Positions 5,524 to 63,480 of a DNA stretch of 64,000 nt are shown piece after piece. The position numbers were made by a program, and so were the translations under genes. The stretch is from Octopus vulgaris. Lineage: Eukaryota. The notes below the pieces were generated by a model. That model saw nothing but the letters and a program-made list of their open reading frames with translations. It was not told where the DNA came from and ran no database searches. How positions within the stretch are numbered: the first letter of the stretch is position 1; each line of letters begins with the position of its first letter. The stretch covers positions 50,530,001 through 50,594,000 of the forward strand of contig OX597831.1 of assembly GCA_951406725.2 (NCBI GenBank). The letters run 5' to 3'.

Positions 5524-7872
5524 CAAGAATTAAAGAAATCCTCATGAAACTGGAACACCACTGAGCATATTTCTTGTAGGTGATTTCAACTTTCCCTGCG
5601 ACGAATGGCCCGAAGGCCTCATGCTCTCAGGAATGACTCATTGCAAACGAGCACAGGTGGAGTCGCTGCACAACCTCACCAATGTCTTATTCGTGGAGCA
5701 AGTTTTACTCAGACCAACTAGGGCGAATAACATTTTGGATCTCTGCTTTACGAACAATATGGACATCGTTCATGAGGTGAAATTGACGCCGACAGTAGCC
5801 TCGGATTACAACATAATAGGGCTATCTATGTTTGGGCCTAAAGTAGCCAGAGACATACAGCTTAAAGGAAGCACCCGAAATCTCTCCAATCTGAACACCC
5901 ACAAAGCAGACTGGAAATCGATCCAAAAAGAGATCCTCAGAGAGGACTGGCCGAAATGTCTCTCCACACCAGACATTGGCATGAAACTAGAATATTTCCT
6001 GTCTGTTGTGCAAGCCATATGCCAAAAATATATCCCAGAGAACAAGGCCAAAACAAATAGGAACAATATTCCAAGGGAGAGGAAAATCCTCATGAGACGA
6101 CGGATGAAGGTTGCAAATCGCATCAACCAACATCCCAAAAGTAGCGAAATGTCCCACCCAAAAACAAGACTAGTGGAGATTTAAAAAAACCTGCAAAAAT
6201 TGCGAGGGAGAAAGCAGAAAAAGAAGCATGGGTTATAAAAAACATTAAGTCAAACCCAAAGGCCTTCTTTCATTATGCAAAAGTACGCTGCTAGATAGGA
6301 CCCGTCTTCTAATGGGATTGCTCCCTCACAGATAGTCGAACCAGAATTAGCGAGGTACTGAATGACCAGTTCAAAAGTGCCTTTACCACCCCGTTGGAAC
6401 ACAGACAAACGAACGAACCAGTAGACATTTTTGCCACCTTACCAGCAAGGCAGTTACGATGGAATACATCGACATTAGCGAAGAAGATACACTACTAGCC
6501 ATAGATGAGGTGGACGCAAATTCAACTGCTGGTCCTGATGGTTTCCCAGCAATCCTCCTTCAATCGTGTAAGCGTGCTCTGGCAAAATCCATCCAGATTC
6601 TCTTCCTGAACATTCTTGCAAAGAGCAGGCTGCCAAGCAAGCTGAAGGAGGGAACAATATGCCCAATCCATAAAAGGGGAAGCAGGACAGATGCCAAAAC
6701 TGTAGGCCTAGCTCTCTGACTTCACACATTAGCAAAGTCATGAAACGGATATTCAGAGGGAAACTAATAGCTTCCCTTCAAGAAAATAACTTACTGAGCG
6801 ATACCCAGTGTGGCTTTCGATCAGGTAGGAGCTGCCTGACCCAGCTCTTACAACATTATGACTGGGCGAGACAGCTACCCAACAATTCAAATGTGGACGT
6901 AATATACCTTGATCTTGCAAAAGCTTTTGACAAAGTGGATCATGGTATGATATACCACAAACTGCGTGATCTCGACATAGCTGGAAAACTTGGAGAATGG
7001 TTACATGACTTTCTGAAAGATAGAAATCAGGCAGTAGTGGCCAAGGGAGCCACCTCAACGAAAACACAAATAGTGAGTGGTGTTCTACAGGGCACTGACT
7101 TGTGACCACTGCTTTTCATAGTGGCCCTCTCAGATATGCCCTCAACTGCCTGCATAGCCACACTTGTTAGCTCCGTAGACGATACAAAAGTCTTGCAGAT
7201 AATACAGAACCCCAGCAATGTTGCACATCTGCAGCGGGAGTTGGACTCAATTTACAGACGGGCTCAGGTTAATAGTATACATTTTAATGTTGAAAAATTC
7301 GAATCCCTGAGCTACCAGCGTCCAAAACTGAATATGAAACTTACAGGGTACACTGGTCCACAGCGAATTACAATCCCAGAGCCTCAATCAGTGAGGAGCC
7401 TGGGTATCGGCATGAGAGATGATACCTCTTTCTAAGTGCACATTAACAGGATGGCGACAAAGTGCAGACGACTAGTTGGATGGATCCTTAGCACATTCAG
7501 AACCAGAGATAAGGAAACCATGATGGTCCCATGGAGGACATTCGTACTCAGCAGCCTAGATTACTGTTCCCAGCTATGGTCACCTACCAGTGTGAAATTA
7601 ACAGCGGACCTTGAAGCAATCCAGCGAATCTTCACAAAGAAGATCGTCTCATTGCAACAGCTCAGCTAGTTGGCAAGGCTGAAACAGCTAAGACTCTACT
7701 CCTTTTAGAGAAAACGGAGGAGGTATGCAGTAATATACATCTGGAAGATCCTGGCATTGAAAGCTACACCAATGCCAGAACATGTCGACGCTGCATAGTA
7801 CCAAAGATCCCAGCAATGCCATCGCGCTTCAGAACCAGTTACTGCGACAGCCTGGGTTTCATGGGTTTCATG
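5524..7872 (+). mobile_element. CR1-group non-LTR retrotransposon ORF2 (APE endonuclease + RT), degenerate
   Basis: VGDFNF, PTRANNILDLCFTN, AGPDGFPAILL, QCGFRSGRSCLTQLL, DVIYLDLAKAFDKVDHG, SGVLQGT, SVDDTK, LDYCSQLWSP; frameshifts and stops. Confidence 0.92.
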
Positions 7873-14631: not shown

Positions 14632-15034
14632 GATGGTGTTACCTTCGTTCACTGATGGATGGAAGCACTCCGTCGGTTACGACGACGAGGGTTCCAGTTG
14701 ATCCGAATCAACGGAACAGCCTGCTCGTGAAATTAACGTTTAAGGGGCTGAGCACACCACAGACACGTGTACCCTTAACGTAGTTCTCGGGGATATTCAG
14801 CGTGACACTGAGAGTGACAAGGCCGGCCCTTTGAAATACAGGTACAACAGAAACAGGAAGTAAGAGTGAGAGAAAGTTGTGGTGAAAGAGTACAGCAGGG
14901 ATCACCACCATCCCTGCCGGAGCTTTTAGGTGTTTTCGCTCAATAAACACTCACAATGCCCGGTCTGGGAATCGAAACCGCGATCCTACGACTGCGAGTC
15001 CGCTGCCCTAACCACTAGGTCATTGCGCCTCCAT
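14632..15034 (-). mobile_element. SINE family B, tail type 1, with 13-bp TSD
   Basis: Homologous to 20911-21298; TSD tgattgtataatg at 14619-14631 and 15035-15047. Confidence 0.9.
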
Positions 15035-16855: not shown

Positions 16856-16858
16856 CCT

Positions 16859-17192
16859 AGACCCCCTTCGGTCATGAATGACCATGGGATTGCACCTAGA
16901 AAGTTACCCTCCTAGACACAAGTCCGGGCAAGGTTGTTTATGGAAGACCAGCAGTCGCCCATGCATACCAGCCTCCCCTCTCCACGCCACCAGTGTTATC
17001 CAAGGGAAAGACAAAGGTCGATACAGCTTGGAACCAGTGACGTCGCAACTCATTTCTACAGCTGAGTGAACTGGAGCAACGTGAAATAAAGTGTTTTGCT
17101 CGAGAACACAACACGCAGCCCGGTCCGGGATTCGAGCTCACAACCTCACGATCGTAAGCTCGACGCTCTAACCACTGAGCCATGCGCCTTCA
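16859..17192 (-). mobile_element. tRNA-derived SINE family D inserted in a (TAA)n tract
   Basis: Reverse complement GTGAAGGCGCATGGCTCAGTGGTTAGAGCG...GCTCGAATCCC; near-identical to 25795-26130; (TAA)n on both sides. Confidence 0.9.
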
Positions 17193-17193
17193 C

Positions 17194-17270
<77 letters not shown>

Positions 17271-18061: not shown

Positions 18062-19170
18062 ACGCCCACCTTTCTGGACGGTGAGCGTGTGTGGGCTCCA
18101 TTTGTGAGGCTCGTCTCCTTGACGGAGCTGCAATCCTGGGAGAAGAAAAGACCGAGACTGGGCGCCTGGCACCTAGAAAATCGTCAGGCGCTGATAACCT
18201 CTACCAGTCGGGACATGGGGTCGGTGGATATTCCGCTTTAGATATTTATAGTTATTAGTGGTGGTGAAGTGCAACGGCATTCTCAGTGTGACACTAGATG
18301 CCGACGAAAACGAACTAGAGCGTCTATTCCGGAGGACTTTTCTGTCGGGAACTATCATGGATAATTTCCAGATGTCCTTGACCTGCAGAGCTACTGGGGA
18401 ATGGGCACTACCGGGTCGAGATAAGCTACAGGCACGGATGTGCTGTCAGACGGACTTGTCCGAGGTGCACGCAGTGTGACGAAACCGTTCTGCATGCCCT
18501 CGTTCAGTGTCCGGGCAATTCTGACTTATGGAGTTATGTTGAAAAGTTGCTGTCTCGCGTGGTAGTGATCTGTTTGTCGGCCGAGTGTGTAGTGATGATT
18601 GCACCGCTGCCCTCCTTCAATCGGGCAGGCAGGGCAGCTTTCCTTTCCCTGGTGGCAGTGGCGAAAGGGCTTTTTTTTTGGGAAAAGGCTGAAAGGCATG
18701 AGGACAGATACACACTCCTCTTTGGTAGAGCTCTTATTAACTTTTTCAAGTTTTACTTAAAAAGGAAATTGACAGCGGTGAGGGAAGTGCTGTCCTCGAG
18801 TGAGTTTATTGAAAGGTGGGTGAAAGTTGCGAAAATGGCAAAAGTAGATGCTACCTCTCTAAGTGTAGACACGTGAGTCAGAAAGAATGAACTAAAGAAG
18901 GCACTTGCTCATGGGATTTCAGGGTAATCTCGGACAGTGGGGCTCCCTAGAGGTGTTGCTGTATCAGGAGGGCCACATCTCTATCATCCTCCACACATTC
19001 TTTTACCTTTGTATGCTATGCACATGTCTCATCTTTTCCAGTGTATACCGTGTATACTGTTATTTATTTTATTTATTTTTATCATTTCATTATTATATGT
19101 AACCTCCCATACATTACGTCTCTCTCTGTATTGTCCCCCTCGTTCTTCACTCTTGTGACAAAAAATGAAA
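18062..19170 (+). mobile_element. Tx1/L1-clade LINE 3' fragment (zf-RVT region + 3' UTR)
   Basis: ALPGRDKL, then CPRCTQCDETVLHALVQCP (CCHC zf-RVT); T-rich UTR ending aaaaatgaaa before (CAT)/(CAC)n. Confidence 0.8.
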
Positions 19171-20644: not shown

Positions 20645-21380
20645 TTACTGGACTCATGCTGTAACGAAAGGAATCTTGCTGCTCTAGACATCAGCTAAGT
20701 CTTAGATCGTGCCTGACAAGCAAAGCTCCCATCTAAACATGCTGCCAACAGGTTCCACCTTTCTCTCGTGCTTTGGATCAGTAGCTTCATTTCAGATCGC
20801 ACCCTCGAGAGACGTGTTGACAGAGCTCTTCCTCCCCACACTAAATCAACCCTAGTTGATTCCCTGGGGCACTTTCTTCTTTCTATATATCAATGGCCTA
20901 CTTGTCATCAGTGGAGGCGCAATGGCCCAGTGGTTAGGGCAGCGGACTAGCGGTCATAGGATTGCGGTTTCGATTCCCAGACCGGGCGTTGTGAGTGTTT
21001 ATTGAGCGAAAACACCTAAAAGCTCCACGTGCTCCGGCAGGGGATGGTGGTGATCCCTGCTGTACTCTTTCACCACAACTTTCTCTCACTCTTACTTCCT
21101 GTTTCTGTTGTACCTGTATTTCAAAGGGCCGGCCTTGTCACTCTCTGTGTCACGCTGAATATCCCCGAGAACTACGTTAAGGGTGCACGTGTCTGTGGAG
21201 TGCTCAGCCACTTACACGTTAATTTCACGAGCAGGCTGTTCCGTTGATTCGGATCAACCGGAACCCTCATCGTCATAACCGACGGAGTGCTTCCATCCAC
21301 TTGTCGTCACTTCGAAGAACAGCTGACACGATCCGTCATTCCATCTAAATCTTCCCTAATTATGCATCATCCAGAAGTAA
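20645..21380 (+). mobile_element. Degenerate CR1/Jockey-group RT fragment interrupted by a SINE
   Basis: ALDIS*VLDRA (~ALDISKAFDRV), LWISSFISDRTL..RVD, LFFLYINGLL. Confidence 0.7.
20911..21298 (+). mobile_element. SINE family B, tail type 1, full length with 11-bp TSD
   Basis: A box TGGCCCAGTGG, B box GTTTCGATTCC; TSD acttgtc(a/g)tca at 20900-20910 and 21299-21309. Confidence 0.92.
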
Positions 21381-25794: not shown

Positions 25795-26135
25795 AAGACC
25801 CCCTTCGGTCATGAATGACCATGGGATTGCACCTAGAAAGTTACCCTCCTAGACACAAGTCCGGGCAAGGTTGTTTATGGAAGACCAGCAGTCGCCCATG
25901 CATACCGGCCTCTCCTCTTCACGTCACCAGTGTTATCCAAGGGAAAGACAAAGGTCGATACAGCTTGGCACCAGTGACGTCGCAACTCATTTCTACAGCT
26001 GAGTGAACTGGAGCAACGTGAAATAAAGTGCCTTGCTCAAGAACACAACACGCAGCCCGGTCTGGGATTCGAGCTCACAACCTCACGATCGTAAGCTCGA
26101 CGCTCTAACCACTGAGCCATGCGCCTTCACTATAC
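25795..26135 (-). mobile_element. SINE family D with 13-bp TSD
   Basis: TSD atgctgaactata at 25782-25794 and 26136-26148; near-identical to 16859-17192. Confidence 0.92.
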
Positions 26136-27239: not shown

Positions 27240-28509
27240 TTGTGTGTTGGTGTGCGTGTATGTGTATGCAAACTCTACCTATATGGGCGTGCCTTTGGTA
27301 ATGCCTGGAAATTATGTTTGTCCTGTAGTGTAGGAAGTATTCTTGTATTGTGCTAATATCGTCACCTCTACCACGACTATTGCGCACGTTGCTAACACTA
27401 ATAACCATGATGTACATGATACTGGTGTTTCCATCAATAATGTTCTTGATGAAGACACAAAGTGAATAACTACATTTCAAATTGCTCATACACGTATTCT
27501 GATTATTGGCGCAGCTCTTGTGATTGGTCAGGCTAAGCCGTGGAGAGTAGATTTTTCTATCCATCTAGTAATGTTGTATAAGTCCACATTCATAAAAAGC
27601 CGCTTTCATTATCCCACCAATAAAAGCCGAAAATATTTCCGAGTTTATCCTTAAATGTAACCAATTTGCCTACACAAATTGTACAAAGATTAGCACACAG
27701 AGTAGATTCACCGGGACTATAAATTTTTCTCAATGTTAATTTAATGAATACAAGAATGTTCTGTCCGTTTATTTCTTTTCTTTTTTTGTTTACTAGCGAG
27801 TCAGTAGAGTTTATAATGGCAACGTGCATTCATCCGTCATTTAAGAAAGATTTGGTATTCATTCTGTAACATGCTCCAGCCATTTACACTCGACGTACGC
27901 AGCTGAAATCTCCGACATGTTAAGGCCTGTGTTTCGTTTGTCACTCACATCCATATTAGTCTTATATTATTCTATTCAAAACCACATACTAATCCAATGC
28001 AATCCACCATTTGTATATCCAATCTCCATACTTGATTTCAACCTAGTATTCCGAAGTAGAAGTATATTCTCATTTATAACTATTTTTCTGATTGCTAAGA
28101 TAGACATACATACATAAGTACTTACCTATGCACATATATATGCACACAGTGACATACACACGAAAACAAACACACCCACATGCACATGCAAACACATGGG
28201 CAGATACATAGATAAATAGATAGAGACAGACAGACAAGTAGACAGACATAAGGGCCGATAGACAGATACGATGATTATAACGAAGGTAATATGAAAATGG
28301 ACTGGCATCGTGTATATTGTTGACATAAGTCCTACGCATAACACGAGTCGGATATATATGAGGATGTGTGTATGCGTTTACATATATACACACACACTCA
28401 CGAACGCACACACACACTCAAATATATGCACATATACATACACACACACGCGCAAACACAAGCATACACACAAAAAAAATTACTAGGTATTGAACCTCTA
28501 ATCGCTACT

Positions 28510-29500
28510 TAGACAACTGTATAGGTGCCACCTCCCTCTCCCGTCAACAACTCTCCCACTTCATTTCTTTCCTTTCTAACTTCCACCCCTCTCTCCAATT
28601 TATTTCTACCATCTCTAACATCTCGGTTAACTTCCTTGATATCTCTCTTAGCATTGACCTCCCCTCCCACTCTCTCACCACCTCCGCCTTCTTCAAACCC
28701 ACAGATTCCCACCGCTACCTCAACTTCTCCCATCCCTTCCACACCAAACGGGTCATCCTCTACTCACAGTTCCTCCGCCTCCGATGCTTATGCAGCCGGG
28801 ACCAGGATTTCAAGACCCAGTCCCAATTCCACCTTGACCGCCTATTCATGCATCGAGGATAACCTTCAACCCTAGTCCAAATCGCACGTGCACGCGCTCG
28901 TCGAATCCATGGCACCATCACCCTCTGCCCCCCACACCAACCCCCTAACTGCACCCACTTTCTCCTCCTTTTCCACACCTCCACCCTACCCCTTCGTCGG
29001 AGCATCCTACGGGCCTTCCGTCGTCTCCAGCTCGATCCCACCACCCGCTCCATTTTTCCCAGCCCACCCATGTCCTCCTTTAAAAGCGCCGGGAACTTAC
29101 ACGATCTACTGGTCCGTAGCATCTTCTCCTCTTCCCCCCAGCCCCACCTGGATCCTTCCTGTGTTCCTGATCCCGCTGCCACACCTGTCCCTTTATCACC
29201 AACACTACCTGGTTCCAACCAGCATATTCTTCACATCAGAAATTCTTTCTCTTGCACCTCTTCTAACCTCATATACTATATTAGATGCAACCTCTGCGGT
29301 AATCTATATGTAGATCAAACGGATCGCTGATTGGCCGACCGGTTCACCGAACATCTAAGGGGTTTTCTGCTGCGTTCGAACATCCCTGTTGCCCGTCACT
29401 TCCGCTTAGTCAACTCCGTCTTTGGCCTCACTCCGCACCACGGATCCGCACACTCGCGAATCCGCCTGGAACAACTATGCTCTTCGGACAAAACACAACA
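28510..29500 (+). mobile_element. Penelope-like element (RT C-terminus + GIY-YIG endonuclease), degenerate
   Basis: VNFLDISL, FKPTDSHRYLNFSHPFHTKRVILYSQFLRLR, NSFSCTSSNLIYYIRCNLCGNLYVDQTDR*LADRFTEHLR, PVARHF. Confidence 0.9.
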
Positions 29501-30748: not shown

Positions 30749-31200
30749 TTAGCGGGAACAACCGACTTCATTTTGTTGTTTTTGTGTATTGTGTGCAATT
30801 ATATTTTTAAAGTTATTAATAGAACTAAAACTAATTTTTATATTATGTCTATTAACGAGCCTCCTATAATAATTATTGACTGGAAAATGCCTATCTATAA
30901 GTGATAAGAAATATCTACTTATACTAAAGGTCATTTCGGGGAAGTAAGGTGTTGTGAACCAGATAATCTTTCTGTTCCCATTCTTCCTCCTCTTTATTTC
31001 TGCACTAATAACAGCTCTATAGGTTATTTCCTCGCTAAAACCACCATTTTTTAGAGCTTTATTATGTATTCGGGCAATACTATTAGAGATGTTTATATCG
31101 GAGGAGAGTCTAGAAATTATCTTGCTAATGTTTTTAGCTAAATTCTTAAACATAATGGGAGGATGGCAGGAACCTACATTAATATAGCCAAGTCAATGGT
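30749..31200 (-). mobile_element. Penelope-like element fragment (post-RT linker)
   Basis: HPPIMFKNL..ISRLSS...RKIIWFTTPY...FLSLIDRHFP...NRHNIKISFS matches the PLE 'IIWFNPPYS...LIDKHFP...KVSYSC' pattern. Confidence 0.8.
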
Positions 31201-31239
31201 TGGGTGTTCTATAGCGTGTGTAAATTTTCTTATTTAAAT

Positions 31240-31590
31240 CTAAATTTTCCAAGTTTAGGAACCTTTCCAAGTTGTTGAAGATGACGATTAACAGTTGTAT
31301 GGTTTGAACTAAGCTTTATTGCCAATTCTTCAACTGATGATGCAGGATTTTCTTCAAGTAATGCCTCTAGGAGCTTATCTTCAAACTCAACTGCACGTCC
31401 TGATCGATCTTCATCTTCAAGGTTGAAATCTCCACTTCTGATTTTTGCAAACCGTCTTCTGCAAATTCTTTCATTCAAACATTCTTTCCCATAAACTGAG
31501 TGCATGTTTCGAGTCGCTTCGGCTGCAGAGTTTCCTTTTTTTGTACACATAAAGCATTATGTACCTCAAATGCTCTTTGGATACTTCCAT
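31240..31590 (-). mobile_element. Mariner (Mos1-type HTH) transposase 5' fragment
   Basis: ATG at 31590; MEVSKEHLRYIML, then KKGNSAAEATRNMHSVYG...RSGDFNLEDEDRSGR...HLQQLGKV. Confidence 0.9.
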
Positions 31591-31656
31591 GTTAGAAAGG
31601 GTTTTAGTCAAAGAAATTTTAATTTTATTATTCTGTAAAATAATATTTAATTAATA

Positions 31657-31838
31657 CAGTTCTATATTTAAGAGATGAGGAATTATGTACATTATTTATA
31701 TTTCACGGATATTTGTCCTCATCTTGTTTGTTGTTGACACAACAATTCGGCTGTCTTGGGGAAATTTTTCGAACCTGGGTTCTCATTCCTAAGGTATTTT
31801 TTGATGTTATAATAATGATAATAATAATAATAATAATA

Positions 31839-31884
<46 letters not shown>

Positions 31885-31955
31885 TCGCTGCTTGGAATCG
31901 AACTCAGAATCTTGGGGTTAGTAGCCCGCGCTCTTAACCACTACGCCATATGCCC
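31657..31955 (-). mobile_element. Solo element: tRNA-like head + (AAT)n + PLE terminal sequence
   Basis: GGGCATATGGCGTAGTGGTTAAGAGCG...GTTCGATTCC; the rest matches both termini of the PLE at 34672-36062. Confidence 0.8.
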
Positions 31956-32266
31956 ACACTGTCATATGACCCCCCACCCCCAACGGTCATATGAGTTAGC
32001 ATCAAGATATTTCAATTGCTAACTGTAAATTATTTCCTGTAAGAGCCAGACAACAATAATTCTTTCGAAACGTTTTTTTATAGAACCAAACAATAAAGCC
32101 AAATTTTCTTTAGAATTTCTCAGATTCAATTAGTCTAGTACAATATTATTTTAAAAAATTATAGAAGTATTCATTAAAATTATGAGAACTTGATATAGAT
32201 TATAATTAAATCTTTTTTCCATGTTTTTTAACTTTGCTAGTACACAACAATCTATCTTTTATATAT

Positions 32267-33375: not shown

Positions 33376-33760
33376 TGTTAATGCAATAAAGATACAACCC
33401 GCATCCGTCTGTTTAAGCAAATATAAACGGTTCGTATTGGAATTCGCAAGCTCCAAAAAAATGTGTTTACCCACTCGCCTGCAAATACACAAATACGATT
33501 GTTAATACAATGACTTTAACCAACTTCAAATTAATCCACCTAGACTGTACACCATGTTACCGCTCTAAGCACGGGATACTATATCGGAAAATTAGGTTAA
33601 TATAATCGTAGCTGTCTAGTAAGAAGCTTGCTCTTTAATCACAAAGTACCGGATGCCGTCCCATTGCGTGGTGCCTAGGGTAAGTGTCTGCTACTATAAC
33701 CTCAAGTCGACCAAAGGCGTGTAGGTGGGTTCGATATACGGAAATGTATGTATACACATA

Positions 33761-33925
33761 GGCGCAGGCGTGGCTGTGTGGTAAGAAGCTTGCTCCTCCA
33801 CCAAATGTCCCCGGGTTCAATCCCACAGCGTGGCACCTTGGGCAAGTACCTTCTACTATATGCTCAGGCCCAGCAAAGTGTTGAGAGTGGATCTGGTAGA
33901 TGGAAACTTAAAGAATCCCGTTGTG

Positions 33926-33985
<60 letters not shown>

Positions 33986-34448: not shown

Positions 34449-34650
34449 TGTACGTCTGTGTTTGTCCCCTTACCATCGCTTGACAACCGTTGCTGGTGTA
34501 TTTATTTCCCTGTAACTTAGCGGTTCGGGAAAATAGAATGATACAATAAGTACCAGGCTTGCAACGAATAAGCCCAGGGATTGGTTTGTTCGACTAAAGA
34601 TGGTGCTCCAGCATGGCAGCAATCTAATGATTGAAACATGAAAGATAAAC
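34253..34650 (+). mobile_element. SINE family A, tandem copy with internal deletion
   Basis: Same head, core and tail as other family A copies. Confidence 0.85.
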
Positions 34651-34671
34651 GATTAATATATCTGAAAATTA

Positions 34672-36062
34672 CAGTTCTATATTTAAGAGAAGAGGAATTA
34701 TGTACATTATTTACATTTGACGGATATTTGTCACGTTTCGGCACTATCGGTGATTCAAGATAAACTAATGACAGACACCCATCTAAAAGAACGCACTAGT
34801 ATACCAATAAGAAACTTGATGGAAATGTTGACATTCTGTGTAGAATCTACCAACTTCAGTATGGATGCTGATATATATATATCGGCAAGAAGTGACTTTA
34901 GATATGGGATCGCCATTATCACCGATAATAGTCAATATATACATGGAATACTTTGAGAATTTGGTTTTAGGATCAACACCACTAAAACCAATCCTATGGC
35001 TGCGATATGTTGATGACACCTTTATACTCTGGCCCCACCAGGAAGATGTCCAAGTGCTGTTAGATCATGTGAACGCAATAAAGCCATACATACAGTTCAC
35101 AGTGGAAAAGGAAAAATACAATCAACTAGCATTCCTGGATGTATTAATAACACGCACCAAGTATGGATTCAGGACATCCGTATACTGCAAGCCGACCTTT
35201 ACTGGACGATACCTCAAGTTCAATTTCCACTATCCATACAGTGTAAAAAGATGGATTGCTGTGTGCCTAAAACATCGTGCAAAGAATATAAGTAGCGATC
35301 GTGATGCACACCACGAAGAAATGATCAAGCTCAATAACAATCTAATAAGCAACAACTACCCCCAAAACGTACTACCCACTCCAATTATGAAGAAAAGAGA
35401 TCAAGTCAATAAACTGTCCACAAAGGCCTCTCCGAAAAGATACAAAAGATATGCGGCCCATATGGCATCAGAACAGTATTCAAGACTAATAAAACACTTC
35501 GCAAATATCTCCTTCGAGCAAAACCACCAATAGAAGAGAATATGACCAAAGACTGCGTGTACTCCATGCCATGCAGCTGTGGTAGGTTATACAAAGGCGA
35601 AACATGCCGCCCTCTCAAAATAAGGGTAGACGAATATCGCAAAGCTGTGACACGAGGAGATATAGATAAATCGGATATAACTGATCATGTATGGAAAAAT
35701 GGAGACCACCTCACCCTGTGGGATGAAGTTAAAATAATAGACAGAGAACACCACTGGAAAATACGAACATTAAAAGAAGCAGCACGTATGCTAGGACACA
35801 ACAGCCTCCTAAGCAGACCGAGTGCAGATATGACTAGCATATGGGAACTGGTATTAAGGAAGGATAGAAAAATATTTGATTAATAAACCTTAAAAATTCA
35901 CTCCATAATTGCCCACGGGCATATGGCATAGTTGTTAAGAGCACAGGCTACTGATTCCGAGTTCGATTCCATAATAATATCAATAATAATAATAATAATA
36001 ACAACAACAACATCGAAAAATACCTTAAGAATAAGAAACCAGGTTCGAAATTTCCCCGTCAA
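34672..36062 (+). mobile_element. Penelope/Poseidon-type PLE, 5'-truncated, with inverted terminal piece and 12-bp TSD
   Basis: MGSPLSPIIVNIYME, WLRYVDDTF, LAFLDVLI, VYCKPT; GIY-YIG CVYSMPCSCGRLYKGETCRPLKIR; TSD atctgaaaatta at 34660-34671 and 36063-36074. Confidence 0.93.
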
Positions 36063-38394
36063 ATCTGAAAATTAGGCTAAAATTCTTGGATGGGCGTCTC
36101 TTTGAGGGCAATTGTCTACTATTTCTGACAAAGCAATCGACCAAATGAAAGCACTTCATTACTTGAGAGTTTGTATGAATGGCATGTAATTGTTTGATGG
36201 ATGCGTGTAATAGACTGTTGTGTGGGTGTCAGGCACTCAATGGTAAAAGATAATTTTCAGAAACCGACTGATGGTGGAGTAGTCGTAGCTGTCGCTGTTA
36301 TTGCTACTGCTGCTGTTATCGTTGGTATTGTAGTTATTGCTGCTGTTTTTCTTTGGGTTTTTTTTTGTTTTTTTGTCGTTATTTCTTACTACTATTATTT
36401 TTTTCTTTTTCATGTAACCCTGAACGATGAGCAACGACATTTCACCAACAATCACACACTTTTTACACTTATTTTTTATTCTGACAAAATGTATCCAGGA
36501 CTACATTATTTACTGTACCATTCCTTTCATTCGATTTTTTATTATATGTTTCTTTCATTTTCTTAAAGACGATGTCATGTGATAATGTAATACAAGATAG
36601 ATTTGACCGTTATTTCAAATATTTCTAGCGATCTTATTCAGGTTTTCTTCTTTAAATTATAGTCACTGGTGCAGTCTTTTGCTGTTGCTGTTGTTGTTGT
36701 TTTTGTTGTTGTTGTTGTTGTTGTTGTTGTTGCTGAGGTTACTACTGCTGATGTCTTTGTCATTGTTAATATTGTTAACAGCATCATGGCCGTTGTCACA
36801 GTCGTGAAATACCTATTGTGCAAAGATGGCTATGTTTTTCATTCTTCAATCAGACACTAATTCTGAACGCTTCTAATTTTCTGTCAATTTAATAGAACCA
36901 GACTTTCTCAGATCTTAGGCATCTGTTCATCCATTGCTGCCTGTTTGGAATCTTTAATCTCTCTCTCCCTTTTTTCCCTTTCCCTCTCACTCCCTCTCGT
37001 TCTCTCCTTCTCTCATTCTATATATTTGTGTGTGTGTGTGCGTGCGTGTGTGTGTGTGTGTGCATGTGTGTGTGTATGTGTATGTGTATATATATTTACG
37101 TATCATGAAACACCTCAGATAATGGTCATAGTGTCTTACCCTTAATTCTATATTGATTTTAATATAATTCCACACATTGAAATTCAAAACAATGATATAA
37201 GTTAGGGTAAGTTGATTTTAGAACTGTAATGTTGGTCTAGTCTAGATTACTTTAAAGTAATCCTAGGTACTACCTACAAGACGATGAAGCTAGTAATAAC
37301 CTGGATTATAACTAACTGCTTGTACGGTAGCCGCCTGGATAATTTATCCTTATATATATGCGTACACACAAATATATATATATATATATATATACATATG
37401 TGCATACATAAATGTGTGTGTATGTGTGTGTAAATAGCAAAGATTTCATTCTACAGGAAAAAAAAACATTATTTACATTGTCCCTAAATGAAAAAAATAT
37501 AGTTACTGATTACCTTTAATCCTATAAAAATATAATTATCTTTACCATTTTTACCATCATTTTCATCATTGTCATCATCGTCATTATTATAGACAGCACA
37601 CCACCATAATCCTTATCCGAGGAACACCGATATCTAAATTCAATGCACTAACATCAAAACTTAGAAAAATTGGCCCATTGGTGAAGCCTTTCTATTTTAT
37701 CGCTCGATTTACTAGAAATAGACGTCCGATTCACTCACATCCTAACCTGCCGTCTTAAAAATATAAACAACTACAAAAACATATTAAACTATATATTCTT
37801 TAGACAAGCCCGTCCAACAGAAAATTTGAACGAGATGGGAATGCATTGGATGATATGTCTGTTCTATCACGATTCACCTGGAACTGAACAGCAGTAATAA
37901 CAACAATAACAAGTACATGAACAACGATAACAACATCGTCGACAACAACAACATCACACCAACAAAAGTCCGCTCAAAATTCAGACATTTACATACTTAT
38001 AATAACTAAAGTCTCTTTAGATTAATATTTGTCTCGTCATACGGCCGATGGTCGGCTAAGTCGTTAAAATATCAAAGAATTAGTTTACAATATTTACATT
38101 TACACAGGTTTCCTCGTCTTATTTGCTAAAATAGTTCTGAGAACAAGTTTGTCTTATAATCCTCTTGATTACTGGAATGCTTTTATTAGTTTGTTCACGA
38201 ATCTCAAATCTGTGGATTTCTGTCAATGATGGAAATGAATAGTAATTTAGTTGTATTTCGTTACGTTCTCATTCCACCGAGTTTGACTTCGTTTTCCATT
38301 ATATTTTCCTGTTTAGTGTGGGCGGCGCGGCTTCCAACTTAAATATGTCTTTCTAGTACATCAAACAAAATGCACATTGGCATTTCTTCCGGCC

Positions 38395-51629: not shown

Positions 51630-52964
51630 ATTCTGTGCGACACTTACTCTTTCCTTAGCCCCTTTCACCCTTTCTACGTTCCTTCCACTTTTCTTTTTCT
51701 CGCTCCCACCATCTCTCACATTTCTTGGCACTCTCTTCGTTCTCTTCACTTTCCCTCTGCCTTTACCTCCTTTGTAAACATAAGGACACAGGAAATGTGT
51801 CAAGGCCGACAGGAAGTGGTGCTTCCTAGAGCTAAATAGCAATAGTACTCTTCCCTTTCATACGACTTGTCACATTGACAACATGCCAACATGACAAACG
51901 GTAATTTTTTGTCCTACGGGGATAAGAAAATTTCTGTTAAATTTTTATTGAAAGATTTTGAATTGTTATTTTTTAATCCTTTACAGGTTCTTTTTGCTGA
52001 AAAATTTGTTCCTTATAAAAATGAAAGAGAAATTATTTTCGGAGCTGGAGTCTCGATATCCGGAAGATGTAAGAAACGTCAGCTCCGAGGTGGCGGATGG
52101 GAAACTAATTGTCAGCCCGGCTGCCCCACCGAGAGAAAGCCAAGCGGCTACACCAAGCAAAGAGAAAAATGGGGAGGGAGGCAAATTTGTGCAGTCCTTC
52201 CTCCAACTTAAACTGTAAGTACACCTTAAACATTTTTTACCTATGAATGTGCGTGGTCTGGGATCGAAATGGAAACAAATTTGTTTACTGGACGACCTCA
52301 GGTCACATGATATAGATGTGTGCATTGTCACTGAGTGGACCACAAGTGTTCTCGCCTCTCTTGAATGGCCACGAGAAATGTATTGCTCATAACCGACATG
52401 GAGGAGGGGGCGTGGTGGTCTTATTCAGGAAGAACTTGGACTTGTAGGTAAGTACTGTCTTTCTGAACACAGAAAGTAGTCTGGTCGTCCTGGATGTAAC
52501 CTACGTGAGTAAACAGTCCTTCGGGTTGGTAGCTGTCTACGCTCCTGACGAGCGTAGGCAGTCTGGCATTTTTTACGAGACCTGGAGCACTTTCTAGTGA
52601 CGTTAAAAATAGTAGTTCTCTTAGGAGACTTTATCCTCGATGCACGGTTGGATAGTGTTGGCTCGACTGATAGGAAAGGAAATCCTGCCCTCAAGGATTT
52701 ACTAGAGCGCTATAATCTAGTAGACCGTTACAGACTGGATGAGCTGAGCGTTCCACAGTGGACGTGGAGTAATAACGACGGTGCACGCAGATCTTACATG
52801 AGTATAGTATTCGTTAGGGAAAGAGATAGGGTTACCTTTAGCTGTCCACGATTTTTTATTGTATCTTACACGGACCACAAATTTGTGACATGTCAGGTAC
52901 GCGTAGATAAATGTCATAGACAGGCACCCGGGTCCTGGAAAATGAACAAGTCTATTTTTACTTG
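51630..52964 (+). mobile_element. Tx1/L1-clade LINE 5' fragment (ORF1 remnant + endonuclease)
   Basis: MNVRGL, GGGVVVLF, LVAVYAP, VLLGDF, LVDRYR..PQWTW, TDHKFV, GSWKMNKSI. Confidence 0.85.
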
Positions 52965-53439
52965 TAAAAAGGCTTCCAAATAAAGAAGCGCTTCTTTATT
53001 TGGGAGACTTTTATTGTATTTCTATAATATATAGTCTAGTGACTAATTCATCTTTTGTGCTGGGTCACTGGTAATAATAATATATTTTTTATTACCCTAT
53101 TTACTATGTTAAAATATTGCTTGATAAATTTGCTCGTAAATTTTTTACCGGCATCTTCTCTGTCGCCGTGTATGATTTGTGGCTGCGCACTGGTTTGAAA
53201 AGTTAGGGTATACAAATCGTTGCCTCTAACGGTCTGTACATCTAGGATTACAAAGGCTCCCTACTGATGATTCTTGCCTTGGCAGATAAATTCTGTTTGT
53301 TTGCTAAAAATAGATGAAACCGTCGGTCTAGGATTAGCTGAGTTGGTAAACGTTTTTAATTTTCATTCCTTTCATGAATTTATCCCTTTTTGTGTGTCTA
53401 GCACAGCGCTTCTTTATTTGGAAGCCTTTTATTGTATTT
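52965..53439 (+). mobile_element. Non-coding hammerhead-bearing retroelement (retrozyme-like); 418-bp unit + 35-bp terminal redundancy + short 5' inversion
   Basis: agcgcttctttatttgg..ttttattgtattt at 52987 and 53405; about 52965-52992 is its inverted copy; blocks homologous to the 32744-33375 element. Confidence 0.72.
53260..53332 (+). ncRNA. Type I hammerhead ribozyme motif
   Basis: CCTA-CTGATGA-T-TCT...AGA-T-GAAA-CCGTCGG-TC-TAGG; GUC cleavage triplet at 53326-53328; stem I CCTA/TAGG. Confidence 0.8.
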
Positions 53440-57346: not shown

Positions 57347-57530
57347 AGAGGAAACGCAAAGGCCGATACAGTTTGGCACCAGTGACGTCACAATTCATTT
57401 CTACAGATAAGTGAACTAGAGCAACGTGAAATAAATTGTCTGCTCAAGAACACAATTCCCAGCCCGGTCCGGAATCGAACTCACTACCTTATGGCTGTGA
57501 GCCCGACATTCTAACGAGTGAGCCATGCTG
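57347..57530 (-). mobile_element. SINE family D partial copy
   Basis: gatacagtttggcaccagtgacgtc...gagcaacgtgaaataaa...ggaatcgaac. Confidence 0.8.
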
Positions 57531-60729: not shown

Positions 60730-63480
60730 ATACTCAATCAGCATGTGTACATACAGATGGATCTGTATGTCATGAACACAATGTTGCAACTAAAAAATAA
60801 GTATAAAATGACGTAGATGCCCCCTAGATCTAAGAAATGGCACCTTATTGATTATATCTTCACTAGAAAACGTAATACCAGGGACTTTGCTATTTGTGCG
60901 AGTTATGCATGATGCAGAGTGCTGGACTGAGTATAAGCTTTTGCGTGCAAATGTGAATTTTGTTGTCAAGCCTAAGTTTAGAGCAAACAATAAGTTACCT
61001 AAACGGATCGATGTCAACAGACTTAATACACCATCAGTACACAATGGGTTTGTGAGTGAGATAAATAATTTGTCCTGTGATGGAAGTGGGAATTCGTTCA
61101 AAGAGACAGTCGATGGGGTTTGTAGTAACATTCTCGGTTTTGTCGAGACAAAGCACTTGGATTGGTTTGACGATAATGATGAAGAAATTGGTCTTATGTT
61201 ATAGAGGAGATGCGAAAAGCATTGAACCTGTTGCAAGATACTGAATTTTCAGTGAACAGAACAGTGACTACACGCTTCAAGCCAGTGAAAGCAACAGTGT
61301 AGGGGGAGCTGAGGATGATGCAGGAAAATTGGTGTAGTGATAGATGCGATGAAATCCAAGAAGCTTCAAATATTAACAGTTCCAAGGATTTTTACTCTCT
61401 TGAAAAAAGTTATGGTCCAACTTCATCAACGTCTGCTCCACTTCGTAGCAAGGATGGCACAGAATTATTCAAAAATCCTAAAGATATTATTGGGAGATAG
61501 AAAGAGCATTTTGATGAGTTGCTCAATAGACCCACTGGAGTCGATCTATTTGTCCTTGATAATATACATGAAAGACCAACAAACCATCTTTTAGCAGAGG
61601 TTCCAAACCTGGCGGAAATAAATGCAGTGATCAGAAAATTGAGCAATGGAAAAGCTGCTAGTATGGATGGATTAGGTGCAGAAATATACAAACATGGTGG
61701 TGAACATCTCCGTACAATGTTGACAGCTGTGACTGAGAGGGATTGGCATAGTGAAGTGGTTCCTTGGGGTTGGTGTGATGTGATTATGGAGATACTCTAT
61801 AAATCAAAAGATAGAAAGGATGTCTGTGACAATTTCCGTGGCCTTTGTCTGTTAGCTCTCGTTGGAAAGGTCCTTTATAGGGTAATGCTGGATAGATTGC
61901 TTCTGCACATTGCTGATGAGAATCTACCAGAAACACAATGTGGGTTTAGGGGTAGTATGAGGAATATGGATATATTTTCAGCTAGACAGTTAGAAGAGAA
62001 GTGCATAGAACAGGATATGGGCCTATATCAGGTTTTTATTGATCCGACTAAAGTGTTTGATTCTGTAAATAGAGTTGTACTTTGGGAGATCCTGAAAAGG
62101 GTCGGATGCCCTGAAAAATTTGTGAGAATGCTTAGATAATTTCATGACAAGATGTAAGTGAGAGCTAATGTTGGAGGTACCTTGTTAGATTCAATTTCTG
62201 TAGAAAATGGTTTAAAACAAGGTGATATTCCTACTTCTACATTGCTTGCTCTGTATTTTGCAAGGGGTCTATGAAGGTAATAAGACAGTCAGGAAACTTT
62301 TCAACCTCAAAAGACTTTGTGCTAAAACGCAAGTTCTTCATTCTCACATCATTGAGGTCTTGTATGCAGATGATTGTGACCTGCTAGCACATTCCCATGA
62401 TGCAACACATGATGAATGCGATTTCTGCAGCATGTATAGCAAGGGGCCTAACAATTAACTTGAAAAAAACTGCTCTAATGTACCAGCCTGCCCCTTCTAA
62501 GATTTATGCCTAACCTTCTGTAAATGTGAATGTTCAAAGCTTGGAAGTTGTAGCTAAATTCATTTATTTAGGAAGTACTTAGAGTACTACTGATCTTGAT
62601 GAAATTTCATATAGAATCAGCAAGGCTACTAAAACCTTTGGTGGGCTTAACAGTGCTTCTGGTCACGCCATAGTATATCTTTCCAAATTAAAGTTAGGGT
62701 TTATAACATAAGCGTGCTGCCATTTTTGCAACATGGAAGTGAGACCTAGGTTGTTTATCGTAGGCATTTAAAGCATTTAGAACGATAACATCAATATTGC
62801 CTTAGGAAAATTCTTGGAATAAATTGGAAAATGGCTATCAGTGATGTAGAGATACTTGAGAAAAGTGATAGTAGAAGTGTATAATAAATGATTCTGCCAA
62901 GTCTTTTGAGATGGGGGGGGGACATCTGGAAAGAATTAATGATGAAAGACTCTCCAAGCGGAGAGATGATAGCGGGAAGATGGTAGGAGACCAGAACATA
63001 AACCCAAAATGAGATTCAAGGAGTGCCTCAGAATTGCTCTGACACAGACAGGAATTTCAATTGTTTGATTGGGAGACAGAGGCACAAGACCGAGATGGAT
63101 GGAGGAAGAGAATGCACAGTGGTTGTTCTAGGTCTGAAGGAGAGAGAATGAAGCACGAGAATAGTAGAAGGCTTAGAAGTAATTAATCTATGGCGAATAA
63201 GGTAGTGTTGCTTTCTGTATGTGTGTGGGTTGTGGGAGGAGGAAATTGAATCGTACAGGCCTGGTCAGTCATCAGAGTTGTGATATGGCTATTGTTGACA
63301 TCAGAACATAACATGTGCAACATGTAGAAAGGTGGGCCTCTCAGTTAGAGAATTAAAAAGGCATGTCAAAAGAGCTCATACAGTGACACCTGTTTCTTCT
63401 GCTAGTCAGCACAGCCGTGAAGTATGTAACAGAATGTACAAAACTTACGTCAGGCTCAATTTTAAAATACAAGGGCTCCA
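60730..63480 (+). mobile_element. RTE-clade LINE ORF (EN end, RT, C-terminal C2H2-like fingers), degenerate
   Basis: PRSKKWHLIDYI, GKAASMDGLGAEIYK, DNFRGLCLL, LPETQCGFRG, FIDPTKVFDSVNR, LKQGD, LYADDC, CATCRKVGLSVRELKRH. Confidence 0.92.

What the first reader, a model, noticed from the sequence alone, without database searches (positions are those of the whole stretch)
31657..31955. Solo tRNA head + PLE tail: candidate SINE mobilised by a Penelope-like element
It starts at the tRNA-like head (A box TGGCGTAGTGG, anticodon-like arm GGG-CTACTAA-CCC, B box GTTCGATTCC). It ends at the same terminus (...cttaaatatagaactg) as the inverted PLE end at 34672. Known SINEs borrow LINE 3' ends; one sharing a PLE terminus would be a different partnership. 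The segment aagacagccgaattgttgtgtc may be the remnant of a deleted hammerhead (speculative).
Basis: partly seen in the sequence, partly recalled or inferred. Interest (0 to 1): 0.7.

Follow-up and report, generated by a model that had tools for sequence, protein, structure and literature searches.

The report
tRNA-headed Penelope end repeat, SINE-like
A 300-base jumping-DNA copy turns out to be the free-standing end piece of a Penelope-like retrotransposon whose end repeat carries a tRNA-type promoter and a small self-cutting RNA motif, so this element family appears to spawn its own SINE-like passengers.

Summary
Head, (AAT)n spacer and tail all recur, in order, directly behind the endonuclease frame of the Penelope/Poseidon-type element (PLE) at 34670-36062, and public reads show this linkage is family-wide. 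The solo is that PLE's terminal repeat (pLTR). Reads laid on the PLE supply a minimal type-I hammerhead, which the solo has lost by deletion. They also show sharp 3' ends and 5' junctions piled at the head: 11 of 16 listed inversion joints fall in 10 nt around +1, with 193 joints hidden. The rest are scattered through the ORF. Random truncation is therefore refuted for this class of copies. Most likely, RNA starting at the tRNA-type A/B-box head (Pol III, inferred) is copied by the PLE enzyme from its fixed internal start, giving SINE-like units. Pol III transcription, and self-propagation of solo copies, are not shown. A Pol II start, or processing at the same site, remains a live rival. Analogues exist (Schistosoma Sm-alpha, retrozymes, TRIMp3), but my literature searches found no tRNA head inside an ORF-linked pLTR. 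New variant of a known kind; interest 0.6.

The parts
31655..31955 (-). Solo terminal-repeat unit: head, microsatellite, dead hammerhead, RT-start tail
   Evidence: no T run of 4 or more on the sense strand
31880..31955 (-). tRNA-derived head; +1 at 31955
   Evidence: 51 of 56 aligned letters identical to 35917-35973
31938..31948 (-). A box
   Evidence: family majority restores the A-box G at the equivalent site 35933 in 510 of 541 and 451 of 474 reads
31894..31903 (-). B box
   Evidence: same box in the family loose-end consensus after 35952
31808..31879 (-). (AAT)n then (ATT)n microsatellite spacer
   Evidence: the PLE copy has (AAT)n(AAC)n here
31758..31807 (-). Middle tail shared with PLE 36009-36057
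   Evidence: 45 of 49 aligned letters identical
31736..31757 (-). Hammerhead remnant: both stem I strands and the 3' strand of stem II kept; CUGAUGA box, 5' strand of stem II and loop deleted near 31752; stem III letters changed
   Evidence: comparison with loose-end consensus after 36057 and 34732; size of the deletion (about 26 nt, CA microhomology) is inferred
31655..31735 (-). Tail ending at the family's sharp 3' terminus (RT start site by analogy with Poseidon PAc)
   Evidence: the last 116 nt fold better than shuffles (z -2.86)
31637..31640 (-). First T4 run, 15 nt beyond the terminus in flanking DNA (possible Pol III stop)
   Evidence: function inferred
31956..32000 (-). 5' flank with near-inverted copies of the first bases of the head (1 and 2 mismatches in 9)
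   Evidence: origin unexplained
34660..34671 (+). Left target-site duplication of the PLE insertion (12 bp; last 2 nt also fit the terminus)
   Evidence: the 12-mer occurs only twice in the window
34670..34732 (-). Inverted 3' terminus of the PLE insertion
34741..35434 (+). 5'-truncated, frameshifted reverse transcriptase and thumb region
   Evidence: Pfam RVT_1 E 1.4e-9; tblastn about 61-64% to P0001 and P0005
35422..35868 (+). Linker and C-terminal GIY-YIG-type endonuclease
   Evidence: Atlas feature hits 0.96 to clusters where 15-21% of members carry PF01541; tblastn 65-66%; no direct Pfam hit
35917..35973 (+). Same tRNA-derived head inside the PLE's 3' repeat, with private deletions (8 nt inside, and the end of the head)
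   Evidence: reads carry the missing letters
35974..36057 (+). Microsatellite and middle tail; this copy stops just before the hammerhead
36063..36074 (+). Right target-site duplication

Best explanation
The element is the terminal repeat (pLTR) of a Penelope/Poseidon-type retrotransposon family, inserted on its own. In this family the repeat begins with a tRNA-derived head carrying A and B boxes, then an (AAT)n spacer, a minimal dimer-type hammerhead and about 110 nt of tail. Mechanism: (1) an RNA starts at the head, most likely made by RNA polymerase III from the internal boxes and running to the first T run in flanking DNA (inferred); (2) the PLE protein binds the tail, nicks AT-rich DNA and starts reverse transcription at a fixed internal site, so no exact RNA 3' end is needed (sharp ends and AT-rich flanks shown here; enzymology from the anole element PAc); (3) cDNA runs to the RNA 5' end, giving head-to-terminus copies (5' pile-up shown for inversion-type copies only). 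These units work like a SINE with a PLE partner. The copy at 31655-31955 is one such product whose hammerhead is dead.
For: Identity of head, spacer and tail with the PLE 3' repeat. ORF-to-head linkage is family-wide: depth is continuous across 35868-35971, a listed contig spans 35733-35968, and 80 X11 contigs clipped at 35893 continue in PLE-like sequence. 3' ends are sharp: 286+112 contigs (X1) and 1132+370 reads (X23) stop at 34670/34672, with A/T-rich unlike flanks. 5' ends: of 16 distinct listed joints from the inverted terminus to a sense start, 11 land at 35910-35919; among rows I took as single-contig, 4 of 9 (binomial p 5e-7 for uniform truncation, 6e-4 if the window is given 5%). In RNA reads the terminus is 3.3 and 5.4 times deeper than the endonuclease peak and 38 and 59 times deeper than RT, so most copies are short. 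A and B boxes are family-majority letters. Hammerhead core present in the family. The terminus lies about 114 nt beyond the start of stem II (inferred), close to PAc's RT start 111-118 nt beyond the same landmark (PMC11167929).
Against: No direct evidence of Pol III transcription: the RNA lay shows balanced strands and no place where many molecules begin or end (these libraries cannot be expected to show short RNAs). Only 15 of 208 joints were displayed, chosen as best supported, which favours recurrent sites. No loose-end pile at 35917 is among the 24 rows shown (1806 hidden). Read depth in the head exceeds the upstream value only modestly (541 vs 481; 474 vs 309), though the reference head shares at most 11 consecutive letters with the solo, so unanchored heads are probably missed. 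Absence of T4 in the unit is not significant (63% of shuffles lack one). The solo has no TSD. The head does not fold as tRNA. Unchecked notes from other genomes report pLTR-edge 5' clustering without a tRNA head.
Confidence: 0.5

Rival explanations
1. Ordinary solo pLTR from a Pol II transcript: the full-length PLE mRNA starts at or near the head, RT initiates in the upstream repeat and runs to the mRNA 5' end. The tRNA sequence is a captured fossil, not the working promoter.
For: Drosophila Penelope uses an internal TATA-less promoter in its pLTR and has an intron there (PMC2377424 passages). RT starts internally. The tail holds a possible ORF start (MRTNIR.., compare the N-termini of P0038 and P0041) followed by a GTAAAT that could be a splice donor (inference). 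Similar 5' clustering is noted for PLEs without tRNA heads (unchecked).
Against: The 5' pile-up coincides within 10 nt with the +1 predicted from A-box position, and both boxes are kept in the family majority. A coincident Pol II start would be an extra assumption.
Confidence: 0.22
2. Long read-through RNAs are cut at the tRNA-like head (RNase P) or RT stalls at a structure there, giving 5'-truncated PLE copies with a preferred end.
For: Joints split into two sub-clusters, 35910-35914 and 35917-35919. A hairpin is predicted across 35903-35926.
Against: The head lacks a cloverleaf fold. The predicted fold of that region is no better than shuffles (z 0.29).
Confidence: 0.13
3. The whole autonomous element, ORF included, is transcribed by Pol III from the head.
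For: The 1182-nt coding part holds one T4 run, and its first T is C in 31 of 31 and 35 of 35 X23 reads. 0-1 of 9 T3 runs reach T4, against 25 of 81 in six other retroelement fragments (Fisher p 0.045 for 0 of 9, 0.20 for 1 of 9). The head is preceded by an inverted copy of its own start in both copies (with a 2-nt insertion in the PLE, seen by eye), as if it were the unit's true 5' end.
Against: Not significant against shuffles (P of zero T4 = 0.08 mononucleotide, 0.34 dinucleotide). Under half of the ORF is visible, and only 40 of 538 substitutions were displayed. A possible intron would require Pol II. Pol III RNAs are uncapped and short (Kojima 2024 argues autonomous partners must use Pol II).
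Confidence: 0.1
4. Random 5' truncation of PLE cDNA that by chance ended at the head, or a chance SINE insertion into this one PLE copy.
For: 5 of 16 joints lie scattered in the ORF, and depth falls steadily towards RT, so ordinary truncation does occur.
Against: Clustering; family-wide ORF-head linkage.
Confidence: 0.05

Closest known systems
Penelope/Poseidon-clade PLEs, e.g. PAc of Anolis (Frangieh et al. 2024, PMC11167929; parts 1-2 of 4 read)
   Same: RT then C-terminal GIY-YIG; hammerhead in the pLTR; fixed internal RT start about 110-120 nt beyond stem II; AT-rich targets; 5' truncation; inverted 5' segment (PMC8557442 passages)
   Different: No tRNA-derived head or Pol III boxes are described for PAc or Penelope in the text I saw
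Schistosoma Sm-alpha / Sj-alpha SINE-like retroposons (as reviewed in PMC6765202, passages; originals not seen)
   Same: Pol III-type promoter followed by a hammerhead in a short repeat
   Different: Those are often tandem, and the passage names no mobilising partner. Here the copy is a dispersed monomer, the hammerhead is of the minimal PLE type, and the same module is attached to a PLE ORF
Animal non-LTR retrozymes (PMC7229834 passages; Li, Clavereau, Pollet 2026 preprint 10.64898/2026.07.22.740005, parts 1-2 of 5 and passages)
   Same: Non-autonomous, hammerhead-bearing, argued to derive from pLTRs
   Different: Defined as tandem repeats making circular RNAs. 'tRNA' has 0 occurrences in the preprint, and 'Pol III' 0 in both papers
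TRIMp3: Helenus, Ajax, Cassandra (Kojima 2024, PMC10886601 passages)
   Same: A small-RNA-derived Pol III promoter inside the terminal repeat of a retroelement
   Different: LTR elements, non-autonomous only; the paper deems sharing of the repeat with the autonomous partner unlikely, whereas here the ORF-bearing element carries the head
Classical tRNA SINEs, including octopus OK, OR1, OR2 (Ohshima and Okada 1994, seen only as a citation; OR2 called a CORE SINE in PMC4758252 passage)
   Same: Under 700 bp, tRNA head, body shared with an autonomous element
   Different: Partner is a PLE, not a LINE; microsatellite is internal and the 3' end is fixed, not a repeat tail. I could not compare sequences with OK, OR1 or OR2

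Membership tests
Penelope/Poseidon PLE (element at 34670-36062) | RT followed by C-terminal GIY-YIG endonuclease in one ORF | tested here: met
   this copy is truncated and frameshifted, relatives P0005 and P0026 carry both regions in one frame
Penelope/Poseidon PLE (element at 34670-36062) | No Cys-rich Zn-finger motif in the RT-EN linker (present in Neptune and Nematis) | tested here: met
   0 of 11 close relatives with a readable linker (of 32 examined) have CxxC; criterion from PMC8557442
Penelope/Poseidon PLE (element at 34670-36062) | Placement in the clade by RT phylogeny against named references | not tested
   no named PLE references were available; best named hits are cockroach and sea urchin proteins at 45-48%
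PLE pLTR | Repeat lies directly behind the ORF and recurs as an inverted or tandem 5' segment | tested here: met
Minimal type-I hammerhead of PLEs | CUGANGA and GAAA boxes, extra base after position 9, G10.1-C11.1, palindromic 15-16 region, short stem I | tested here: met
   For the family, read by eye from two loose-end consensus pieces plus the letters the solo keeps; criteria from PMC4209133. No single continuous sequence was seen
Minimal type-I hammerhead of PLEs | Intact core in the solo copy itself | tested here: not met
   CUGAUGA box deleted; no descriptor hit in this region, no Rfam hit
Minimal type-I hammerhead of PLEs | Self-cleavage as a dimer | not testable with these tools
   needs an in vitro assay
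SINE (SINEBase definition, PMC3531059) | Short (under 700 bp), non-coding | tested here: met
   301 nt; no ORF of 120 aa or more
SINE (SINEBase definition, PMC3531059) | Head derived from a Pol III RNA with internal promoter | tested here: inconclusive
   A and B boxes significant; ARAGORN and Rfam negative; likeness to tRNA-Arg is recalled, not tested
SINE (SINEBase definition, PMC3531059) | Copies start at the head | tested here: inconclusive
   met for 11 of 16 displayed inversion joints; plain solo copies could not be counted
SINE (SINEBase definition, PMC3531059) | Transcribed by Pol III | not testable with these tools
   no suitable RNA data
SINE (SINEBase definition, PMC3531059) | Depends on a partner LINE; 3' tail of simple repeats | tested here: not met
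   partner is a PLE and the 3' end is a fixed non-repeat terminus
Non-LTR retrozyme | Tandem repeats with a hammerhead in each unit | tested here: not met
   monomer at this locus; tandem arrays elsewhere in the genome not examined

The most novel reading that the evidence does not exclude
A protein-coding Penelope-like retrotransposon family has replaced its usual promoter with a tRNA-type Pol III promoter. Pol III makes both the short head-to-tail RNAs (a SINE lineage born inside, and mobilised by, a PLE) and the full-length RNA, whose coding strand avoids T4 terminators and whose hammerhead provides the processed, uncapped message.
Probability: 0.1. Interest if true: 0.88.

Novelty: new variant of a known kind. 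Interest (0 to 1): 0.6.

Why it matters
SINEs are defined by LINE partners. Hammerhead-bearing short repeats (Sm-alpha, retrozymes) have long been suspected to ride on PLEs without a sequence-level link to a Pol III promoter. Here head, ribozyme and RT start site sit in one module that is both attached to a PLE ORF and dispersed alone. This gives a direct route for the birth of a SINE from inside an autonomous element. PLE internal priming removes the need for a defined RNA 3' end, which suits Pol III read-through. It makes two open questions testable: which polymerase drives PLE repeats, and whether PLE proteins mobilise short RNAs in trans. It also matters for repeat annotation, where such copies would be split between 'SINE' and 'Penelope'.

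Tried and rejected
No whole genome is held, so the genome-wide histogram could not be made. The tail pattern found 0 matches in metagenome and viral contigs. Protein-based locus searches found no relatives. ARAGORN and Rfam gave no tRNA or hammerhead (Rfam hits were microsatellite artefacts). PDB sequence search gave only weak generic RT hits (best E 0.0016). No RNA holder was listed; this is no evidence on expression. Contig depth sums are not copy numbers and were not used as such. Lack of T4 in the solo was rejected as evidence. No TSD for the solo. Earlier-finding searches by sequence, by place and two by words returned nothing. Literature: nine searches answered. In the listings and passages seen, none describes a tRNA-headed pLTR or a PLE-mobilised SINE; two searches returned 0 papers. 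The library lacks most subscription journals and Repbase. The SINEBase supplement could not be read and bioRxiv supplements are closed, so a match to OK, OR1, OR2 or a Repbase/Dfam entry is not excluded. PMC13282606 (part 1 of 3, passages, supplement search), PMC8967140, PMC6685494, PMC7761336 and PMC3653858 (passages) gave no such description.

Full report
OBSERVATION. The minus strand from 31955 to 31655 reads as a tRNA-like head (76 nt), an (AAT)n/(ATT)n run, and a 153-nt tail. This pair is the only strict match in 64 kb, against 0.007 per shuffled window. The terminal 18-mer occurs twice, here and at 34672, and the two termini are 60 of 63 identical. The head is not called by ARAGORN or Rfam and folds worse than shuffles (z +2.06), so its tRNA origin rests on boxes and spacing. 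A likeness to tRNA-Arg, and the host being an octopus, are recalled from the look of the sequence; no call names either.

WHAT THE NEIGHBOUR IS. [quoted passage not shown] A search for longer relatives returned 110 proteins at E 1e-20 or better among 375 candidates, the best at 63-69% identity. None of 11 close relatives with a readable linker has a CxxC motif, which fits Penelope/Poseidon rather than Neptune or Nematis (PMC8557442). No tree against named references was made. The insertion is flanked by a 12-bp duplication found only there. Its left end is the family's 3' terminus, inverted; its right end stops just before the hammerhead. The two segments do not overlap, as in twin priming, but an inverted second copy is a known PLE arrangement too.

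THE KEY CORRECTION. Directly behind the endonuclease frame lie the same head (35917-35973), spacer and middle tail. Fourteen runs under five coded organism labels hold 28-55% of the region's sampled words. I laid four runs on 34620-36179: two DNA contig sets (organisms A and D) and two RNA read sets (organism D). Depth runs on from the ORF end into the head, one listed contig spans 35733-35968, and 80 contigs clipped at 35893 continue in PLE-like letters. So the head belongs to the family's ORF-linked repeat; it is not a chance insertion in one copy. The solo is that repeat alone.

HAMMERHEAD. Records running past 36057 continue with a consensus containing GACAC, then CTGATGA, an extra A and GGCTG (66 contigs in X11, 307 reads in X23). 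Records running past 34732 give, reversed, AAACGTT followed by GTGTT (149 and 168 contigs; 1295 reads in X24; the X23 consensus differs at one letter). The solo keeps GACA, CAGCCGAA and GTGTC. Together these give a type-I minimal hammerhead: 5-bp stem I, an unpaired base after position 9, a 5-bp stem II opening with G-C, and a palindromic ACGU in place of stem III. These are the features listed by Cervera and de la Pena (PMC4209133, part 1 of 4 and passages). The junction between the pieces was not displayed, so the gap size is inferred. In the solo the first catalytic box is deleted and the stem III letters are changed; the motif is dead.

ENDS OF COPIES. 3' ends are sharp at 34670 and 34672 with A/T-rich unlike flanks (X1: 286 and 112 contigs; X23: 1132 and 370 reads). 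A second pile at 34697 may be a second start site or a variant of a 9-nt unit. In the anole element PAc, RT starts internally 111-118 nt past the start of stem II, at two adjacent sites, on AT-rich targets; here the terminus is about 114 nt past stem II (inferred). 5' ends could be read only from records joining the inverted terminus to a sense start. Of 12 such rows in the joint table, 10 land at 35910-35919; with four more from table 5c, 11 of 16; the other five lie at 35487-35765. Only 15 of 208 joints were shown, picked as best supported, which favours recurrent sites. I therefore dropped the six rows seen in two runs or two contigs and one very deep row, and assumed the four 5c rows single: 4 of 9 remain at the head (p 5e-7 uniform, 6e-4 at 5%, 0.008 at 10%). 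No pile of loose ends at 35917 is among the 24 rows shown, and head depth is only modestly above upstream depth. The reference head shares no exact run above 11 nt with the solo, so unanchored heads are probably under-laid; I cannot count them. The terminus is 3.3-5.4 times deeper than the endonuclease peak in RNA reads; copies with two termini inflate this. Strands are balanced and no RNA start or end pile is reported, as expected for copies embedded in host transcripts.

MECHANISM. Shown: module identity, family-wide linkage to a PLE ORF, hammerhead in the family, fixed 3' end, AT-rich targets, a preferred 5' boundary at the head beside ordinary scattered truncation. Inferred: Pol III initiation from the boxes, termination at the first flanking T run (15 nt past the terminus here), and copying in trans by the PLE protein. 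I give this 0.5. Rivals: a Pol II mRNA starting at the same place with RT priming in the upstream repeat (0.22; Penelope has an internal promoter and an intron in its pLTR); cleavage or stalling at the head (0.13); Pol III transcription of the whole element (0.1; the visible 1182 nt of coding strand have one T4, removed in the family majority, but this is not significant against shuffles); random truncation (0.05).

COMPARISON. It works like a SINE. It fails the SINEBase definition on partner and tail, and Pol III is untested. It meets the pLTR and minimal-hammerhead criteria at family level. Sm-alpha has a Pol III promoter plus hammerhead (review passage). Retrozymes are argued to be pLTR derivatives. 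TRIMp3 elements put tRNA or 5S promoters in LTRs of non-autonomous elements only. Non-autonomous PLE derivatives are known. Unchecked scan notes describe tRNA-bearing Penelope-type tandem repeats and hammerhead-headed short copies in other genomes; I did not test them. They suggest the theme recurs and that 5' clustering needs no tRNA head. My searches found no paper describing a tRNA head in an ORF-linked pLTR; Repbase, Dfam, the 1994 octopus SINE paper and the SINEBase supplement were not visible.

VERDICT. Real, family-wide feature; new variant of a known kind; interest 0.6. The boldest open reading, a Pol III-driven autonomous PLE, has probability 0.1 and would merit 0.88.

Noticed in passing
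joint 34721 to 35919: One contig with this exact inverted-terminus-to-head junction has depth 1429 in X1, while most other listed joints and pieces have about 30-130; one inverted unit may itself have been amplified some 20-fold, by an unknown route.
   Followed up: no
31956-32000 (-) and 35905-35916 (+): Both heads are preceded by near-inverted copies of their own first 9-10 bases, suggesting fold-back synthesis at the cDNA end.
   Followed up: partly
31670-31725 (-): The tail could hold an ORF start (MRTNIR..) resembling two full-length relatives' N-termini, followed by a possible splice donor; two relatives only, inference.
   Followed up: partly
34697-34717: A 9-nt unit in the terminus varies in number among copies (left out in 168 of 3261 X23 reads); a second pile of ends lies at 34697.
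   Followed up: partly
31808-31879: The microsatellite switches from AAT to ATT midway, forming a long palindrome; the PLE copy has AAT then AAC.
   Followed up: no
28443-29465 (+): A second, distant PLE fragment (tblastn about 26% to the relatives); Neptune-like by recall.
   Followed up: partly
30749-31300 (-): ORF fragment whose motifs recall the C-terminal half of another PLE type; no Pfam hit.
   Followed up: partly
33741-33930 and 8 other places (343, 15870, 33607, 34250, 48186, 51063, 51592, 57202): Abundant SINE-like family with an internal (TA)n run, 73-82% alike over the long matches; recalled as an octopus CORE-type SINE.
   Followed up: partly
16856-17195 and 25796-26130: Two 335-nt copies, 97% identical, of another SINE-like family, with older copies at 57350, 3560 and 20911.
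   Followed up: no
14656-14914 and 21041-21299: 259-nt inverted pair, 97% complementary, 6.1 kb apart; its last 60 nt recur at four other places.
   Followed up: no
5534-7105, 18382-18876, 52558-52983, 60812-62139: Broken LINE-type endonuclease and RT fragments (types by recall); used only as controls for T runs.
   Followed up: no
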